Positions 11,595-36,354 of a stretch of DNA of 46,865 bases are shown here, piece after piece. The stretch's first letter is position 1, and each line of letters opens with the position of its first letter. Where the stretch lies: assembly GCA_031363565.1 (NCBI GenBank), contig JANLUQ010000365.1, positions 1 through 46,865 of the forward strand. Direction: 5' to 3'. Both the position numbers and the translations under genes were made by a program. The notes beneath the pieces were generated by a model. It saw nothing but the letters and a program-made list of their open reading frames with translations. It searched no databases and was not told where the DNA came from. The stretch is from Armatimonadota bacterium. GTDB lineage: Bacteria > Armatimonadota > Armatimonadia > Armatimonadales > Capsulimonadaceae.

Positions 11595-11771
11595 TCAGAG
11601 TGGCCTGGCTAATCCTGCCGCCATGTCTTGTTTAGCGCGTTCGATGATCTCGTCGAAGCGACCGGCTTCCCAGTCTCGGGCGATCTGCTGATCCCACTGC
11701 TCCTGCCTTAGTTCTTCAAGTCGCTCCATGAGTTGATCAAGCTCTCCCGGCGTAAGTTTAGCGGCAGCCAT
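11595..11771 (-). CDS. small helical hypothetical protein (58 aa)
   Basis: MAAAKLTPGELDQLMERLEELRQEQWDQQIARDWEAGRFDEIIERAKQDMAAGLARPL. ATG 11771. The longer ORF-track version begins inside the palindromic element. The gene ends 16 nt upstream of the AAA+ gene. Confidence 0.5.
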   Translation of the reverse strand: MAAAKLTPGELDQLMERLEELRQEQWDQQIARDWEAGRFDEIIERAKQDMAAGLARPL

Positions 11772-11817
11772 TTCTATCTCTCGGATGCTCACGTCTGAAC
11801 ACTCCTGATTCGCCCCG

Positions 11818-13107: not shown

Positions 13108-14793
13108 TCAAAGACTGATTTCGGCCCGCACGACGCCCGCCCTTTGGTGCCGCGCAAGCAGTTTAACCGTGCCGCCTTGGGGCGCGTGGACGATCCAGTC
13201 GAAGTGGGCACGGTCGTCGGTGGGGTCGGCGACGGGGCTGAAACCACTCGCGGCTTTGAGGTTGCGGCCTTCCAATTGGCCTAGCTCTTCGCGGACGCGG
13301 CCCACATGGAGCGTCGCGCCGTCGGGCAAGGTAATCTCGGCCAGGACGGGGCGAACGCTCTTGCGCTCCAGGGCGCGCTTGGAGATATCGGTGGGCAGCC
13401 AGCCGGTGTTCTGGACGACCAGGCGGACACGGTAGACGCCGTCGCCCAGGGGTTTGGCTTCGGCGGAGAGGAGTTCCAGCTTGGGGGTGATGAGGGCCTG
13501 CCAGACCAGCCAGTCGGAGTGCGGGGCGATCTCAGCTTCCAGCAGGTGCGGGGGCGGGTTGCGGAAGCAGTAGGCATAGTCCCAGCCCCCGATCTCGACG
13601 GGTCCGAGGTCGGGATGGTCGAAGGGTGCCCAGGGAACAAACCCCTTGCCATCCAGCTTCTCATCGTTCCACTGAATGAGCTTCAGGTCATCTTCAATCG
13701 GGTGCTCGCGGAACCATTCGATGAACTTGTAGTCCGTGATGCCCGCCTGACGCTGCGGGGACCAGAGTTCGGTCGTCCAGGCGTAGACGCCCAAATGGTC
13801 GTACATCCAGTCATCGAAGACGCCCGTAATGACCTCTTTGGGGTGGTACTTGAAGTCGTGGAAGACGGAGACATTTGGGTAACCGGTCAGCTCCGTTCCC
13901 TTGTCGCCGATCTTCATGAACGTCCACAAGTCCTCGGGGATCATCTCCGAGTCGGCTTTGACGCCGTAGGGGCGCAGGATAACGCCGCTGAGGGTATGAA
14001 ATGTCACCGCGCCGCAGATGTTGGGGTGCTTAACGATGAACTCGACGAGGGCGCGAATCTCCGGCTCGGAGGTCGGGAACTCGCCCGCGCCACCCTGGTC
14101 GCCTTCGGGCCGCCACTCGGAGGGGAAGTTGCGGTTTAGGTCCAGCCCTTCCTTGCTCTTTTGCAGGCGGACCTGGACGCCGTCGTAATTGGTCAAGCGG
14201 CCCTCGGGGAGCTGGCGGTAGTAGGCGCCACCGGTCTCGGTCGGGCCTCGGCGGATCAGCAGGCGAGGCTCGTCCGGGTGGGTCTTCCAGGCCCCGTTCG
14301 GATCGAGGAGGCGCATGGAAAGCAGCTTGCCGTTGCCGTCCACATCCTCGCGCTTGAGTCCCTCGATAGGCTCCTCGTCGAACGGGTAAGGCCGGGCGGA
14401 GGAGCGCAGCCAGCGCGGGGGCGTCTGCATCGCCAGCTCGGCCCCATCCGGGTTGACACGCGGGACGATGTAGAAGGCGCGGGTGTCCAGGGCGCGCGTC
14501 ACATCGGCATCGGTTCCATCCCCACTCGTCAGCCGGTGCAGCAAATAGAGGGCGGCGCTCGACGGGGACAGCTCAGTCGCATGGATATTGGCATCCACCC
14601 AAAAGGCGGGCTTCTCGTCGGCGGGACCGGTCAAGAAGCGCGTCACGGTCGCGAGCCAGATGTCACGTCCCTCGTAAGACTTGCCGATGCTGTGGACATG
14701 GACCAGGTCCGGGCGCTCGGCGGCGAACGCATGCAGCAGATGCGTAATCTCTTCGTGATTGTAGTAGCGGTCAAAGGTCAGGTCCATCGGCAT
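13108..14793 (-). CDS. M14-family zinc carboxypeptidase
   Basis: SIGKSYEGRDIWLATVT and VDANIHATELS (HxxE zinc ligands). ATG 14793 is preceded by AAGGA. Confidence 0.85.
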   Translation of the reverse strand: MPMDLTFDRYYNHEEITHLLHAFAAERPDLVHVHSIGKSYEGRDIWLATVTRFLTGPADEKPAFWVDANIHATELSPSSAALYLLHRLTSGDGTDADVTRALDTRAFYIVPRVNPDGAELAMQTPPRWLRSSARPYPFDEEPIEGLKREDVDGNGKLLSMRLLDPNGAWKTHPDEPRLLIRRGPTETGGAYYRQLPEGRLTNYDGVQVRLQKSKEGLDLNRNFPSEWRPEGDQGGAGEFPTSEPEIRALVEFIVKHPNICGAVTFHTLSGVILRPYGVKADSEMIPEDLWTFMKIGDKGTELTGYPNVSVFHDFKYHPKEVITGVFDDWMYDHLGVYAWTTELWSPQRQAGITDYKFIEWFREHPIEDDLKLIQWNDEKLDGKGFVPWAPFDHPDLGPVEIGGWDYAYCFRNPPPHLLEAEIAPHSDWLVWQALITPKLELLSAEAKPLGDGVYRVRLVVQNTGWLPTDISKRALERKSVRPVLAEITLPDGATLHVGRVREELGQLEGRNLKAASGFSPVADPTDDRAHFDWIVHAPQGGTVKLLARHQRAGVVRAEISL

Positions 14794-14902: not shown

Positions 14903-15715
14903 ATGCTTATCCGTCTCGGCTACGACATCATCTTTCAGTTTCCCGTCCCGACTCCCATGCTGCTGATGCTCAACACGCACCCCTTGGAGGCACACCGGCT
15001 GCGGGGCGAGGACCGGCCCCGGTCAGAGCCGCAGGTTCCAACCACGGAGTTCATTGACGGTTTCGGCAACCGCTGTAGCCGTCTGGTCGCGCCCGCGGGA
15101 CGTCTGCGGCTGTATTCGGAGGCCGTGGCCGAAGACAGCGGGCTGCACGAGGTCATCGCGACGGACGCGCCGCAGCACCCGATCGAGGACCTGCCGGACG
15201 AGTGCCTGACGTTCCTGCTGGGGAGCCGGTACTGCGAGGTGGCCGAGATGCTGCCCATCGCATGGGATATGTTCGGGAAGACGCCGACGGGCGGGGCGCG
15301 GGTGCAGGCGGTCTGCGACTGGGTATTCGCGAATGTGGAATTCGGCTACCAGTACGCGCGCCCGTCCAAGACCGCCCTGGACGTCTTCACCGAGCGGCGC
15401 GGCGTCTGCCGCGACTTCACGCACCTGGCGGTTACCTTCTGCCGCTGCCTGAACATCCCGACCCGCTACTGTAACGGCTACCTGGGGGACATCGGCGTCC
15501 CCCCCGACGTCAATCCCGGGGACTTCAATGCCTGGTTCGAGGTCTATTTGGGGGGCCGCTGGCACACCTTCGACGCCCGCCACAACGAGCCACGCATCGG
15601 ACGGGTGCTGCTAACGCGCGGACGGGACGCGACCGATATCGCGATGACGACGGCCTTCGGCGCGAACACGCTGGAGCAGTTCATCATCGTGACTGAAGAA
15701 GTGCCGGAGGCTTAG
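14903..15715 (+). CDS. transglutaminase-like cysteine protease family protein
   Basis: Core motif RGVCRDFTHLAVTFCRCLNIPTRYCNGY and the typical MLIRLGYDI N-terminus. Confidence 0.85.
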   Translation: MLIRLGYDIIFQFPVPTPMLLMLNTHPLEAHRLRGEDRPRSEPQVPTTEFIDGFGNRCSRLVAPAGRLRLYSEAVAEDSGLHEVIATDAPQHPIEDLPDECLTFLLGSRYCEVAEMLPIAWDMFGKTPTGGARVQAVCDWVFANVEFGYQYARPSKTALDVFTERRGVCRDFTHLAVTFCRCLNIPTRYCNGYLGDIGVPPDVNPGDFNAWFEVYLGGRWHTFDARHNEPRIGRVLLTRGRDATDIAMTTAFGANTLEQFIIVTEEVPEA

Positions 15716-33373: not shown

Positions 33374-33826
33374 ATGGGATTTATGGACACGCTGGCGATC
33401 AGCGCCTCGGGCATGACGGCGGAGCGGCTGCGAATGGATGTCGTCGCCAACAACCTGGCGAATGTCAACACGACGCGCACGCCGGGCGGCGGGCCGTTCC
33501 GGCGCGAGCAGGTCGCGATGGCCCCGGCCTCGGCCTCCTTCGGCGAGACCCTGGCGGGCCTCTCCGGCGACAACGGCGGGGCGGAAGCCGTGCAGGGCGG
33601 CGTGCAGGTGTCGGGCATCGTCCCCGACATGCGCCCTTTTAAGCGCGTCTACCAGCCCGGACACCCGGACGCCGACAAGCAAGGCTACGTCAACCTGCCG
33701 AATGTGGACACCGTGACCGAGATGGTGGACATGATGGGCGCGACCCGCGCCTACGAGGCGAACGTCGCCGCCGTCGGAGCCGTCAAGGGAATGGCGATGA
33801 AGGCGATGGAGATCGGGCGGGCATAG
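33374..33826 (+). CDS. flgC: flagellar basal-body rod protein FlgC
   Basis: SGMTAERLRMDVVANNLANVNTTRTPGG and C-terminal RAYEANVAAVGAVKGMAMKAMEIGR. Confidence 0.92.
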   Translation: MGFMDTLAISASGMTAERLRMDVVANNLANVNTTRTPGGGPFRREQVAMAPASASFGETLAGLSGDNGGAEAVQGGVQVSGIVPDMRPFKRVYQPGHPDADKQGYVNLPNVDTVTEMVDMMGATRAYEANVAAVGAVKGMAMKAMEIGRA

Positions 33827-33839
33827 GCGAAACCCAGGC

Positions 33840-34273
33840 TCAGACGCTCCAGTCCACCGCCTGCACGCCGGGGATCTGCTGGAAATGCCGCAGGTTGGCG
33901 GTCACGACCGTGAGCCGCCGGTTGATGGCACTCGCAGCAACACGGCAATCGCGTGTTCCCACTCGTTTGACCGCCGCCGACCAGCTCTGATAGAGGTCTT
34001 CATCCGCCTCGGTGTACGGCAGTGTTTGGAACTGCCGCAGAAATTCCTGGGTCAGCACGAGGTCACGATAAGCAACGGGGATGAGGAGAGTGTCTTTGGG
34101 TCGGGCTGGATTCAGTTTCGCGAGGACCCCAACCGCCCCCGGAACTGCTCCTCCACAACGACGGCAGGCAGCCAGAGTTTGGCTGGCGGAACAGCCAACG
34201 CCCGCGGGTTTAAGAGACTGCTGCGTCCTCGGAAGAGAAGACTTGCAGTGTCGTTGTCCAGCGCGAAGATGGC
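33840..34273 (-). pseudogene. PIN-domain (VapC-like) toxin gene, frameshifted and without a canonical start
   Basis: The N-terminal half (AIFALDNDTASLLFRG...VVVEEQFRGRLG) is in one frame. The C-terminal half (YRDLVLTQEFLRQFQTLPYTEAD...RLTVVTANLRHFQQIPGVQ) is in another. They switch at G/C runs near 34127-34140. Confidence 0.6.
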
Positions 34274-34474
34274 CTACTCGACCAGCCCATGCTTCTGGTC
34301 TATTTCCCGCCGCGACTGTTCCATCTCTTGAAGGAACTCGTCCCACAGCGGGTCATCCGCAAACCCGCCGATGACACGGGTGAGCGGATGCTCCTCCGGC
34401 GGCGTGGTTCCGTGCGTGCCGTTATGCTCCGCTATTGGCGTCTCCACCGCGACCTTATCTTTAACGATTTCCAT
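34274..34474 (-). CDS. putative antitoxin partner of the PIN toxin (66 aa)
   Basis: Small acidic ORF ending DDPLWDEFLQEMEQSRREIDQKHGLVE, directly abutting the PIN gene. Confidence 0.5.
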   Translation of the reverse strand: MEIVKDKVAVETPIAEHNGTHGTTPPEEHPLTRVIGGFADDPLWDEFLQEMEQSRREIDQKHGLVE

Positions 34475-34521
34475 AACCGACAGTTTACCCCATCTGCCTC
34501 ATGTCCTCAACCGCATTGAAG

Positions 34522-34620
34522 AACATGATGAGCGCCACGCGCCTACGAGGCGAACGTCGCCGCCGTCGGAGCGGTCAAGGGCATGGCGATGAAGACACTG
34601 AAGATTGGAAGGGCGGCGTC
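34522..34620 (+). pseudogene. duplicated, degenerate 3' end of flgC
   Basis: 34539-34572 is identical to 33747-33780 (34 nt), and flanking similarity extends to about 70 bp. It has a 1-nt deletion relative to flgC and encodes ..AYEANVAAVGAVKGMAMKTLKIGRA. Confidence 0.8.
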
Positions 34621-34682: not shown

Positions 34683-34979
34683 CTAAGAGGTTAAGTCATA
34701 ATCATCCGGCTTGGAATGGCGTTTTTCCTTTAGATAAGTCAGAAGAGTTACCCAGGCTCCACATATGCCTCCCACAAGTCCATACCACAAGCCCACATGA
34801 GGCCACCACCATTGTATATGAGCTAGACTGATATTTGGGGGGTCACAAATCAAGTAAGTTGCAAAACAGACCAAAGGCACAAATAACGTCGCCGACAGAA
34901 AAGTCAACAACAGTTTAATCCAGAGAACGTCCGTCCATCTTTTCATTTTGTATTTGACCTTTTGATGAACAGCCGCCAT
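34683..34979 (-). CDS. small three-TM membrane protein, candidate immunity protein
   Basis: AT-rich ORF with hydrophobic segments, 41 nt downstream of the glycine-zipper ORF. The position is typical of immunity genes. Confidence 0.45.
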   Translation of the reverse strand: MAAVHQKVKYKMKRWTDVLWIKLLLTFLSATLFVPLVCFATYLICDPPNISLAHIQWWWPHVGLWYGLVGGICGAWVTLLTYLKEKRHSKPDDYDLTS

Positions 34980-35019
34980 ATGGGAGGCGGCTGTTCAACT
35001 CCAAGGGTTGATCCACCGG

Positions 35020-35193
35020 CTATTCCATTGTATGGAACATCCGGTTGTAGCCCTCACCGTTTGCCCTTCTTTGGTACGCCTCTGCCGCTGCTACGCCAGC
35101 AGCGAAGCCCAGAACGCCACCTACCGGACCACCCACGCCGAAGCCGATTGCGCCACCGACCATCCCGGCGGCTATGTTCCCAACTACATGCAA
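35020..35193 (-). CDS. glycine-zipper membrane peptide (57 aa), in frame with the RHS fragment across a TAG
   Basis: Not in the ORF track (under 60 aa). Sequence: (M)HVVGNIAAGMVGGAIGFGVGGPVGGVLGFAAGVAAAEAYQRRANGEGYNRMFHTME. Only TAG plus one codon separate it from the upstream ORF. Confidence 0.4.
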   Translation of the reverse strand: MHVVGNIAAGMVGGAIGFGVGGPVGGVLGFAAGVAAAEAYQRRANGEGYNRMFHTME

Positions 35194-35196
35194 TGC

Positions 35197-35685
35197 CTAT
35201 CCACGAGTGATAGGAATGAGGCCCCCAGCAGGCTGGTTGTTACGTGAAGTTGGGAAAGACTGGGCAGAGCTCGGGGATCTAGGTGGTGGTAAATTTCGCG
35301 TTGGATCAACTGCTCCCTGATGCCCGCTGGGATCGCTGAAGTTGATGGGGTCGCTGTCGCAGTAGGCGTAGGGCTTTTGGCTCAGAACCGTGTCCCGCGT
35401 CAGGAAGCACCCGAACTCCGGGTCGTAGTAGCGCGCCCCCACCTTCAGCAGAGCCGCCGCATACGTCGGCCCGAACCCGTCCGAGCGGTAGCCGCTCTTT
35501 GCACCCCATCGGTAGGGATTCGCCGTACTTCCGCTTGAAGAGGAGACCATGCCATACCCCTGGTACGAACCCGACCACTGCACCACTGGGCTACCGTTGC
35601 CCGTCGTCTGGCGCACTGCCCCCAGGCCGTCATACAGCAGCGTCTCCCCACCGGTGCTTACCAGCCCGTTCCCGTACAGGTTCAT
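35197..35685 (-). CDS. RHS repeat-associated core fragment (orphan C-terminal module)
   Basis: YD repeat LLYDGLGAVRQTT, then the core end GARYYDPEFGCFLTRDTVL..PYAYCDSDPINFSDPSGH (DPxG cleavage motif). The frame is open upstream through a TM-like segment but has no start codon there. Confidence 0.7.
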   Translation of the reverse strand: MNLYGNGLVSTGGETLLYDGLGAVRQTTGNGSPVVQWSGSYQGYGMVSSSSGSTANPYRWGAKSGYRSDGFGPTYAAALLKVGARYYDPEFGCFLTRDTVLSQKPYAYCDSDPINFSDPSGHQGAVDPTRNLPPPRSPSSAQSFPTSRNNQPAGGLIPITRG

Positions 35686-35924
35686 ACTCGAGGAGGTCTG
35701 GTTCGACTGCGTCAGCGTTGCGTTCCCGTCAAAAGGAGCTTGTAGGATAGGCAGAAAGAAGACTGTGACGAGAAGGGTGACAAAGAGCGTCAGGAATGAG
35801 AGACATGGCCGAGAGACGTGGCCGAGAGAGGTTGGGCAGTGGGTGTGCCTGTCACGAGAAAGGTCATCGTAGGAGTCTCCTTTACAACGCGCAGCAGACG
35901 CTCGATTGTTTCTGCGATGAAAAT

Positions 35925-35953
35925 AGTGTAGAGCTTATTTCGAGGTTTGTCAA
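35925..35953 (-). promoter_or_regulatory. sigma-70-like promoter firing into the RHS cassette, toward flgC
   Basis: Minus strand: TTGACA (35953..35948), 17 nt, TACACT (35930..35925). Confidence 0.4.
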
Positions 35954-36129: not shown

Positions 36130-36354
36130 ATGAGAGTCATTTACTCGGGGGCTTCCCCGAAACCCATAGTCGGCACATCTCGCAACGCGGCACCAGCACA
36201 GGAGGCCGGCTTTGCACCGGCCGCGACGCCGGCGCCGGCCGCTACCGTGGAGATCTCGTCTGCTGCGCGTGGGGCTTACTCCAAAGGGGAGCAGCACGCG
36301 CCCACCCACAAGATACGCCCTCTCAATATCATCTGGGGCAATAGTCCGAAATAG
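36130..36354 (+). CDS. short FlgM-like (anti-sigma-28) candidate, 74 aa
   Basis: ATG 36130 follows CAGGAGG. Disordered Ala/Pro-rich N-terminal half, then TVEISSAARG resembling the FlgM (D)KVELS motif. The C-terminal helices are short or absent. Confidence 0.3.
   Translation: MRVIYSGASPKPIVGTSRNAAPAQEAGFAPAATPAPAATVEISSAARGAYSKGEQHAPTHKIRPLNIIWGNSPK

What the first reader, a model, noticed from the sequence alone, without database searches (positions are those of the whole stretch)
34683..35953. Orphan RHS-core, glycine-zipper peptide and membrane-protein cassette (polymorphic toxin/immunity layout)
Seen in sequence: an RHS-associated core end (GARYYDPEFGCFLTRD...DPINFSDPSGH) is followed by a short Pro/Ser-rich linker, then an in-frame TAG. 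Two codons later comes a 57-codon glycine-zipper ORF (GGAIGFGVGGPVGGVLGFAAGV), then a small AT-rich three-TM ORF 41 nt downstream. Upstream, the RHS frame stays open through a TM-like segment (LFVTLLVTVFFLPIL) with no start codon. A promoter, an RBS and a 25-codon ORF sit in another frame next to a 13-bp tandem duplication (35806-35832). Established knowledge: RHS proteins cleave at DPxG and deliver variable C-terminal toxins encoded next to immunity genes, and glycine-zipper peptides can form membrane pores. Inference: this is a displaced or decaying RHS toxin tip whose effector is a membrane-active glycine-zipper domain. Alternatively, it is a novel mini-RHS with a stand-alone peptide toxin.
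Basis: partly seen in the sequence, partly recalled or inferred. Interest (0 to 1): 0.65.

Follow-up and report, generated by a model that had tools for sequence, protein, structure and literature searches.

The report
Decaying orphan RHS toxin tip, immunity gene
This is a leftover end piece of a bacterial contact-weapon (RHS) gene whose small membrane-attacking toxin has been switched off by a stop codon while its protective partner gene stays intact: an ordinary kind of feature, caught here in an unusual place and phylum.

Summary
Window 35320-35733 encodes the last ~135 residues of an RHS protein (TIGR03696 core, 47.3 bits against a 32.5 cut-off). A ~40-residue linker follows, then an in-frame TAG (35197-35199), a six-fold GxxxG glycine zipper, and a small membrane-protein gene.

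The TAG is a premature stop, not a gene boundary. Conspecific contigs carry TCG (Ser) there, giving an intact 221-aa ORF, or CAG (Gln). A 48%-identical C-terminal toxin region (CT) elsewhere is also continuous.

The membrane protein has two helices, not three. Its homologue follows that divergent CT, and it survives where the toxin was replaced. It has one other 50%-identity cluster among 1.84 billion representatives, and pairwise dN/dS is about 0.2. It is best read as the cognate immunity gene.

The RHS piece is a 5'-truncated orphan. It has no in-frame start, its 47 relatives have ragged N-termini (118-284 aa), and relatives sit behind longer RHS genes or in arrays. One contig is a core/tip mosaic, which shows tip swapping.

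The cassette lies in a strain-variable island between flgC and fliE of a probable Chthonomonadales-like bacterium from glacier samples. Verdict: a new member of a known kind. Toxin and immunity functions are inferred, not shown.

The parts
35925..35953 (-). Sigma-70-like promoter, TTGACA-N17-TACACT, conserved in conspecific contigs
   Evidence: 10 of 12 matches. Identical in the window, L001 and L005.
35790..35882 (-). AAGGAG ribosome-binding site (35877-35882), ATG 35867 and a 25-codon ORF that is out of frame with the RHS fragment
   Evidence: The distance from ATG 35867 to ATG 35685 is 182 nt (remainder 2 when divided by 3). It is out of frame in all 11 loci examined.
35798..35829 (-). 13-bp tandem repeat, TCTCTCGGCCA[C/T]G. 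Two full copies here; one copy in L001 and L004.
   Evidence: Simulation shows that 0 or 3 copies would fuse ATG 35867 to the RHS frame. No such allele was seen.
35320..35733 (-). 5'-truncated RHS fragment: the last YD-type repeats plus the RHS-associated core, ending in DPINFSDPSGH
   Evidence: TIGR03696 hit at about 35320-35463. Aligns with the C-terminal part of longer RHS proteins (L008 609 aa; P0049; P0050) starting at 'DGNAPLTETNQT'. Weak match to PDB Rhs entry 8h8a.
35200..35319 (-). Pro/Ser-rich linker, the N-terminal part of the toxin CT. It includes the conserved QPAGGxxPITRG motif.
35197..35199 (-). Premature TAG stop. The same codon is TCG (Ser) in L007 and CAG (Gln) in L093-95; Gln also occupies it in the divergent homologue P0010.
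   Evidence: The TAG allele is seen in independent runs. TAG is a genuine stop in this genome: fliE ends in TAG.
35020..35196 (-). Glycine-zipper part of the toxin CT, listed mechanically as a 57-codon TTG ORF. It ends ...AYQRRANGEGYNRMFHTME.
   Evidence: It is continuous with the RHS core in P0001 and P0010. Only sub-threshold Pfam matches: DUF456 and MccV.
34967..34996 (-). 12-bp-stem RNA hairpin between the toxin stop and the immunity start
   Evidence: z-score -4.7, and none of 200 shuffles folds as well.
34683..34946 (-). Putative immunity gene: 87 aa and two transmembrane helices. The alternative start at 34979 would give 98 aa.
34510..34614 (+). Duplicated remnant of the flgC 3' end, marking the lower boundary of the toxin/immunity module
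   Evidence: 87% identity to 33740-33822. It belongs to the ~705-bp block shared with L001.

Best explanation
The region is an orphan RHS toxin-tip/immunity module in which the toxin half is decaying.

Shown:
- An RHS gene 3' end carries the last ~135 residues of the shell/core, with the DPxxxxDPxGH end.
- It was once fused in one ORF to a ~100-residue C-terminal toxin region (CT), made of a Pro/Ser linker plus a long glycine zipper.
- In this strain the ORF has no in-frame start codon.
- It is also cut by a single-base nonsense change (CAG or TCG to TAG) just before the zipper.
- The gene immediately downstream, an 87-aa two-helix membrane protein, is intact.
- That gene co-occurs with this CT type in a locus about 50% diverged, and it persists where the toxin has been replaced.

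Inferred:
- In an intact, full-length RHS carrier the CT would be released at DPSGH after delivery. It would insert into the target cell's inner membrane and dissipate the membrane potential, as Tse5-CT and other glycine-zipper toxins do.
- The two-helix protein would neutralise it within the membrane.
- In this strain only the immunity function is likely to matter, as protection against siblings that still deliver the toxin.
- The conserved upstream promoter may serve to transcribe the module, and hence the immunity gene.

New tips arrive by homologous recombination within the conserved core. One such mosaic is seen directly. The whole module lies in a strain-variable island between flgC and fliE.
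For: Anatomy. RHS core: TIGR03696, 47.3 bits against a 32.5 cut-off.

Continuous ORF in relatives:
- P0001/L007 is 221 aa, exactly 162+1+1+57, with TCG in place of TAG.
- P0010 has a 48%-identical CT that is continuous, with Gln at that position.
- L093-95 carry CAG there but have a 1-nt deletion at window coordinate 35254. That is a second, independent inactivation.

Immunity gene:
- A 56%-identical homologue sits directly after P0010's CT.
- It is intact in L001-L004, where the tip was replaced and the glycine zipper is gone.
- The only other cluster among 1.84e9 representatives is P0048.
- dN/dS is 0.19 and 0.28 between alleles.
- The model shows a two-helix hairpin.

Orphan status:
- There is no in-frame start.
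- The 47 homologues are 118-284 aa with ragged N-termini.
- In L008 a 609-aa RHS is followed by its partner gene, then by the orphan P0005 and a membrane protein.
- L012 holds a tandem orphan array.
- Longer RHS fragments share the same junction sequence.

Tip swapping:
- The same core carries three different tips and downstream genes at the same site in conspecific contigs.
- L007 differs from L005 at 2 of the first 360 nt compared, then at 16 of the next 72. Downstream it is nearly identical to the window.
- Read depth spikes over the core, and a contig with another tip branches off at the DPSGH boundary (35340).
Against: - No full-length RHS gene lies in the 46.9-kb window. The module is not downstream of one, unlike classical orphans.
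- A strong conserved promoter, ribosome-binding site and ATG sit just upstream. That is unexpected for a purely silent relic.
- The codon series CAG, TAG, TCG could mean the ORF was restored under selection in one lineage. That would imply translation.
- Toxicity, membrane targeting and immunity are untested.
- The CT has no significant match to any Pfam family or solved structure.
- A CT-only database search returned nothing, so its wider distribution is unknown.
Confidence: 0.75

Rival explanations
1. Stand-alone mini-RHS or peptide toxin. Either the 57-codon glycine-zipper ORF is translated on its own from its TTG, or the ~160-220-aa 'mini-RHS' is a complete functional protein starting at ATG 35685. 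In both cases it would act as a bacteriocin-like membrane peptide with the downstream gene as immunity.
For: - The ORF exists.
- It has a weak resemblance to microcin V, E 0.017, below the cut-off.
- All 47 relatives found are short.
- One allele is an intact 221-aa ORF.
Against: - The peptide is continuous with the RHS core in P0001 and P0010, and residues across the junction are conserved (ITRG-x-ALHxVGN).
- By direct reading of the sequence, I see no purine-rich Shine-Dalgarno sequence before the TTG or before ATG 35685.
- The N-termini of relatives are ragged rather than conserved.
- The short-only result is not proof that longer forms are absent. The 609-aa L008 protein shares this core yet was not returned.
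- The AlphaFold2 model of the 221-aa protein is poor, pLDDT 52.
Confidence: 0.08
2. Switchable gene. The 13-bp repeat acts as a slipped-strand ON/OFF switch, or the 25-codon ORF is joined to the RHS frame by -1 frameshifting. A protein starting at ATG 35867, with a hydrophobic signal-like segment, would then be made in a subpopulation.
For: - The promoter, ribosome-binding site and ATG are conserved.
- Copy number differs between strains, 1 versus 2.
- With 0 or 3 copies ATG 35867 reads straight into LSFLTLFVTLLVTVFFLPILQAPFDG...NLYGNG.
Against: - None of the 11 loci examined is in frame; nine have exactly 2 copies.
- The hydrophobic stretch is a C/T-rich sequence with no homology to RHS proteins.
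- Both substitutions seen in the 25-codon ORF change the amino acid.
- By direct reading, I see no slippery heptamer.
- Even if switched ON, this allele would still stop at the TAG.
Confidence: 0.05
3. Programmed read-through of the TAG yields a low level of full-length toxin.
For: The stop is in frame and the downstream frame is fully open.
Against: - TAG terminates the conserved fliE gene in the same window, so the code is not reassigned.
- Sibling alleles simply have sense codons.
- The ORF lacks a start anyway.
Confidence: 0.02
4. The ORFs downstream of the RHS fragment are unrelated genes or chance ORFs, not a toxin/immunity pair.
For: Neither ORF matches any family above threshold.
Against: - The pairing is conserved in a ~50%-diverged locus.
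- Pairwise comparisons suggest purifying selection on the membrane protein.
- Its distribution is extremely narrow.
- It occupies the canonical position after DPxGH.
Confidence: 0.03

Closest known systems
Orphan rhs-CT/immunity modules of Enterobacteria, e.g. Salmonella Typhimurium LT2 (Koskiniemi et al. 2014, PMC3967940)
   Same: - A 5'-truncated rhs fragment keeps part of the core but has no translation start.
- A unique CT follows, and then an immunity gene.
- The core serves as the substrate for homologous recombination that swaps tips. A mosaic is seen here.
   Different: - It is not located behind a main rhs gene. It sits between flgC and fliE, on the opposite strand.
- It has its own conserved promoter, ribosome-binding site and ATG upstream, out of frame.
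- The toxin is additionally inactivated by a nonsense mutation.
- The host is probably a Chthonomonadales-like member of the Armatimonadota, not a proteobacterium.
Tse5 (RhsP1)/Tsi5 of Pseudomonas aeruginosa (PMC9637101, PMC10684867)
   Same: - An RHS carrier with a small, non-enzymatic, membrane-inserting CT that depolarises target cells.
- The immunity protein has two predicted transmembrane regions and sits in the inner membrane.
   Different: - There is no detectable sequence similarity between the CTs or between the immunity proteins.
- Tse5 is a full-length, PAAR-like, T6SS-delivered protein.
- No delivery domain or secretion system is identified here.
Glycine-zipper depolarising toxins on other carriers: EsxX (LXG, T7SS; PMC12744356), CdiA-CT ionophores (PMC11630599), CdzC/D (PMC5380434), microcin V
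   Same: A long GxxxG zipper in a short hydrophobic C-terminal domain, with small membrane-protein immunity encoded next door.
   Different: - The only similarity is compositional or sub-threshold: MccV at E 0.017-0.034, DUF456 below its cut-off.
- The carrier domain is different.

Membership tests
RHS repeat-associated core domain (TIGR03696) | Profile match above the curated cut-off | tested here: met
   47.3 bits against a 32.5 cut-off, E 2.3e-12. Profile positions 26-76 of 76 are matched.
RHS repeat-associated core domain (TIGR03696) | C-terminal DPxxxxDPxG(H/L) autoproteolysis motif at the core/toxin boundary | tested here: met
   DSDPINFSDPSGH is present. D118, P119 and G121 are invariant in 47 relatives. 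Cleavage itself was not tested.
Full-length RHS/YD-repeat toxin | Long YD-repeat shell (PF05593 repeats) upstream of the core | tested here: not met
   The window fragment has no Pfam RHS_repeat hit. Only ~75 residues precede the core match. No other RYYD motif occurs in any of the six frames of the window.
Full-length RHS/YD-repeat toxin | N-terminal start codon and a delivery domain (PAAR, signal peptide or similar) | tested here: not met
   There is no ATG/GTG/TTG in frame upstream of 35685. ATG 35867 is out of frame in all 11 loci.
Orphan rhs-CT/immunity module | 5'-truncated core fragment + unique CT + adjacent immunity gene | tested here: met
Orphan rhs-CT/immunity module | Lies downstream of a main rhs gene that shares the core | tested here: not met
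   Its neighbours are a conserved 74-aa ORF with fliE on one side and a flgC remnant on the other. The feature is met in relatives L008 and L012. The rest of this genome is not available.
Orphan rhs-CT/immunity module | Recombination within the core exchanges tips | tested here: met
   L007 is a mosaic: an L005-like core joined to a window-like tip. Three different tips sit on one core at one site.
Glycine-zipper membrane-depolarising toxin | Tandem (G/A/S)xxxG repeats in a hydrophobic segment | tested here: met
   Six glycines in register in GGAIGFGVGGPVGGVLGFAAG. The pattern is kept in P0010.
Glycine-zipper membrane-depolarising toxin | Sequence or structural homology to a characterised member | tested here: not met
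   Pfam gives only sub-threshold hits. PDB hits are compositional only. The AlphaFold2 model is too poor for a fold search.
Glycine-zipper membrane-depolarising toxin | Depolarises or permeabilises target membranes and is neutralised by the cognate immunity protein | not testable with these tools
   This needs expression and membrane-potential assays.

The most novel reading that the evidence does not exclude
The conserved promoter, ribosome-binding site and ATG, together with the 13-bp repeat, form a copy-number (slipped-strand) switch. In rare 3-copy or 0-copy variants it fuses a start codon and a hydrophobic export segment to the RHS core fragment. The 'orphan' would then be a phase-variable, stand-alone secreted mini-RHS toxin that needs no full-length carrier. 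In this strain the TAG would also have to revert, as may have happened in L007 through the codon series CAG, TAG, TCG.
Probability: 0.05. Interest if true: 0.65.

Novelty: new member of a known kind. Interest (0 to 1): 0.3.

Why it matters
- It adds a previously undescribed toxin-tip/immunity pair, with no family match for either, to the polymorphic-toxin repertoire.
- It extends RHS tip-swapping to what is probably an uncultured Armatimonadota lineage from glacier habitats.
- It gives an unusually clear natural snapshot of the life cycle of such modules. At one chromosomal site there are three alternative tips, one recombinant mosaic and two independent toxin-inactivating mutations, while the immunity gene is retained and appears constrained.
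- It does not change how RHS systems are thought to work.

Tried and rejected
- An exact scan of metagenome contigs with the 32-nt promoter pattern found nothing. More alleles were obtained instead through look-ups of encoded proteins.
- A homology search with the CT alone returned no hit at E <= 0.01, not even P0001. This is probably a composition or word-index effect. The CT's presence on other carrier types therefore stays unknown.
- The AlphaFold2 model of the 221-aa protein was unusable, pLDDT 52, so I ran no fold search.
- PDB sequence searches with the CT and with the immunity protein gave only compositional matches.
- I tested whether the window's promoter and 'MTF...' start are homologous to the start of the 609-aa RHS of L008. 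They are not.
- I tested whether any allele puts ATG 35867 in frame with the RHS fragment. None of 11 does.
- Runs labelled RNA-Seq (X2-X5) show flat, DNA-like contig depth and cannot be used as evidence of expression.
- I rejected the idea of a defined 'mini-RHS' protein family because the N-termini are ragged.
- I rejected housekeeping roles for the two small ORFs.

Full report
**1. What is in the sequence**

The feature is on the minus strand. Read 5' to 3' on that strand it contains the following.

- A sigma-70-like promoter, TTGACA-N17-TACACT (35953-35925).
- An AAGGAG ribosome-binding site, then ATG 35867 and a 25-codon ORF.
- A 13-bp tandem repeat inside that ORF (35798-35829, 2.5 copies).
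- In another frame, an open stretch with no ATG/GTG/TTG until ATG 35685.
- This frame encodes ...FDGNATLTQSNQTSSSMNLYGNG...KVGARYYDPEFGCFLTRD...DSDPINFSDPSGH. It matches the NCBIfam RHS-associated core model TIGR03696 above its curated cut-off: 47.3 bits against 32.5, E 2.3e-12. Pfam sees nothing.
- A 40-codon Pro/Ser-rich linker, then TAG (35199-35197), then GCA.
- A TTG-initiated 57-codon ORF that carries six glycines in register at i+4.
- Forty nucleotides further on, a low-GC ORF (46-48% against about 65% in the flanks) for a small hydrophobic protein.

- The membrane protein has two helices, not three. AlphaFold2 gives pLDDT 72.5 with helices at residues 2-34 and 41-78, and hydropathy agrees.
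- Its start is more likely ATG 34946, giving 87 aa. ATG 34979 lies in the loop of a very stable hairpin, and homologues begin at the equivalent of 34946.
- The 'TM-like' upstream segment is the translation of a C/T-rich stretch that has no RHS homology.

**2. The TAG is a premature stop**

A homology search with the 162-aa ORF returned P0001. It is 221 aa, exactly 162+1+1+57, and 94% identical. Its contig, L007, reads GGA TCG GCA TTG where the window reads GGA TAG GCA TTG.

Three further conspecific contigs (L093-95) have CAG at this codon. They also carry a 1-nt deletion 55 nt upstream that frameshifts the CT; this is protein P0002. L097 shares the window's TAG. Contigs of three independent public runs cover the site without a difference from the window.

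A more distant protein, P0010, has a 48%-identical CT that is continuous with its RHS core. Gln occupies the same position, and the junction ITRG-Q-ALHLVGN is conserved.

TAG is an ordinary stop in this genome, because fliE ends in it.

The 57-codon ORF is therefore the severed tail of a ~100-residue CT, not a separate gene. Within this population the toxin has been inactivated at least twice, independently.

**3. The downstream gene behaves as cognate immunity**

- P0010's CT is followed, at the same spacing, by an 85-aa protein 56% identical to the window's protein.
- In conspecific contigs L001-L004 a different tip has replaced the glycine-zipper toxin, yet the membrane-protein gene is still there and intact. 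The shared ~705-bp block begins exactly after the toxin's stop codon.
- An exhaustive HMMER search of 1.84 billion cluster representatives found one other cluster, P0048, at 63% identity. That copy stands alone, without a toxin.
- Between alleles dN/dS is 0.19 (7 synonymous, 5 non-synonymous changes) and 0.28. The counts are small.

This is the pattern expected of a toxin-specific immunity gene that is kept as 'orphan immunity'. It excludes a housekeeping role. That the protein actually neutralises the toxin remains an inference.

**4. The RHS piece is a truncated orphan**

- All 47 relatives are 118-284 aa. Their N-termini start at many different points of the same alignment: before NLYGNG, at AFG, or only at KVGARYYD. 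That is what truncations give, not a domain boundary.
- In a related organism (L008) a 609-aa RHS protein with YD repeats is followed by its partner gene, then by the orphan P0005 (which starts MPQVNLYGNG), then by a 136-aa multi-pass membrane protein.
- A Chthonomonas metagenome-assembled genome carries a tandem array of such orphans (L012).
- Longer fragments (P0049, P0050) run from YD repeats straight through 'LDYQLDGNAPLTETNQTSSRMNLYGNG'. P0049 bears the same tip type as the L001 orphan.

The short-only outcome is not proof that long carriers are absent. The L008 protein was not returned although it shares the core. The 46.9-kb window holds no second RHS core.

**5. Tips are being exchanged at this site**

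Contigs that encode an identical FlgC protein have three different contents between flgC and fliE.

- The window type.
- The L001 type: the same core, a different tip, a 183-aa protein, an IS3 remnant, a TPR protein, then the retained immunity gene.
- The L005 type: the same core, a Ser/Thr/Gly-rich tip, a retropepsin-like protein and a 92-aa membrane protein.

L007 is a mosaic. Its fragment differs from L005 at 2 of the first 360 nt compared and then at 16 of the next 72. From there on it is nearly identical to the window. This places a crossover in the last ~20 codons of the core.

In the metagenomes, read depth rises five-fold to more than 100-fold over 35349-35445. A contig with another tip (…DPNGHSDL…) branches off at 35340, where the DPSGH boundary motif begins.

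**6. The upstream promoter and repeat**

The promoter, ribosome-binding site and ATG are conserved in the window, L001 and L005. ATG 35867 lies 182 nt from ATG 35685, so it is out of frame.

Nine loci have two repeat units. L001 and L004 have one unit plus a 146-bp insertion that contains stops. No locus is in frame. Simulation shows that zero or three units would give an in-frame fusion.

I regard a switch as unlikely (5%). The more probable role of the promoter is to transcribe the module, including the immunity gene. That role is an inference.

**7. Mechanism proposed**

The shown steps are the anatomy, the former continuity of the ORF, the inactivations, the toxin/immunity co-occurrence, the recombination, and the narrow distribution.

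The inferred steps follow from established knowledge of RHS toxins and of Tse5/Tsi5 (PMC9637101, PMC10684867), of orphan Rhs modules (PMC3967940), and of glycine-zipper toxins on other carriers (PMC12744356, PMC11630599, PMC5380434).

- On a full-length carrier the CT is released at DPSGH.
- It inserts through its glycine zipper into the target cell's inner membrane and dissipates the membrane potential.
- The two-helix protein blocks it within the membrane.
- In this strain the toxin is dead and the locus functions, if at all, as immunity.

The delivery route is unknown. No secretion-system gene is linked to the module. I treat its position inside the flagellar cluster as a hotspot effect.

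**8. Organism and setting**

The nearest genome matches to the core are Chthonomonadales and Chthonomonas metagenome-assembled genomes at 49-54% identity. The window's organism is therefore probably a related member of the Armatimonadota; this is an inference. The sequence recurs in glacier, ice and freshwater-sediment metagenomes.

**9. Verdict**

This is a new member of a known kind: an orphan, decaying RHS tip with retained immunity. Its toxin and immunity families are unclassified, and it comes with a clear population snapshot. Interest 0.3.

Noticed in passing
window 33716-33822 and 34510-34614; L001 about 11700-11810: The 3' end of flgC is duplicated about 790 bp downstream, at 87% identity over 83 nt. 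L001 carries a third such remnant. Successive islands appear to have entered at the flgC 3' end, each leaving or bringing a copy of it.
   Followed up: partly
window 33827 to about 36000, compared with L001 10454-15600 and L005 2575-5400: The flgC-fliE gap is a strain-variable island. Contigs with an identical FlgC protein hold three different gene sets there, about 2.2, 5.1 and 2.8 kb long.
   Followed up: yes
window 33840-34474 (-): A VapBC-like pair. The 66-aa upstream ORF is intact. The PIN/VapC reading frame seems split by a frameshift: the N-terminal 'IFALDNDTASLLF...' lies in one frame, and the C-terminal half, the only part that matches PF01850 and the VapC models, lies in another. This looks like a second decaying toxin in the same island.
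   Followed up: partly
L001 about 15100-15250 and about 14260-14400; L004; L007 1-140: A roughly 138-bp MITE-like element with 11-bp terminal inverted repeats (GGTAGTGGCTC...GAGCCACTACC) and an 8-bp target duplication (CTCGTCAC). It is inserted between the promoter/ATG and the RHS fragment. L001 has a second copy.
   Followed up: partly
L005 3107-5232; L008 7033-9997; L009; L010: RHS tips rich in Ser/Thr/Gly that end in an aromatic residue are followed, in two diverged species, by a ~350-aa protein with a hydrophobic signal-like N-terminus and two retropepsin-like domains (Asp_protease_2). It sits in the position where an immunity gene is expected. It may be an unusual immunity or accessory type.
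   Followed up: partly
window 34967-34996 (-): A 12-bp-stem hairpin (z-score -4.7) lies between the toxin stop and the immunity start. It has no U-tract. The ATG of the 98-codon ORF lies in its loop.
   Followed up: partly
window 36130-36354 (+): A conserved 74-aa ORF, divergent from the RHS promoter and just upstream of fliE. It is present in all conspecific loci and has no Pfam match.
   Followed up: partly
window 35197-35199: The codon series across strains is CAG (Gln), TAG (stop), TCG (Ser). The Ser allele is one step from TAG and two steps from CAG, so it may be a reversion of the nonsense mutation.
   Followed up: partly
window 35737-35833: In run X6 the contig depth over the 13-bp-repeat segment is 273, against about 4 in the flanks. 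I have no explanation for this.
   Followed up: no
L008 7033-8862; L011 7047-8519: The longest RHS genes seen in relatives are only 490-609 aa. From my own knowledge of characterised RHS proteins, that is short for a closed RHS shell. They may be truncated themselves, or they may be a short lineage-specific form.
   Followed up: no
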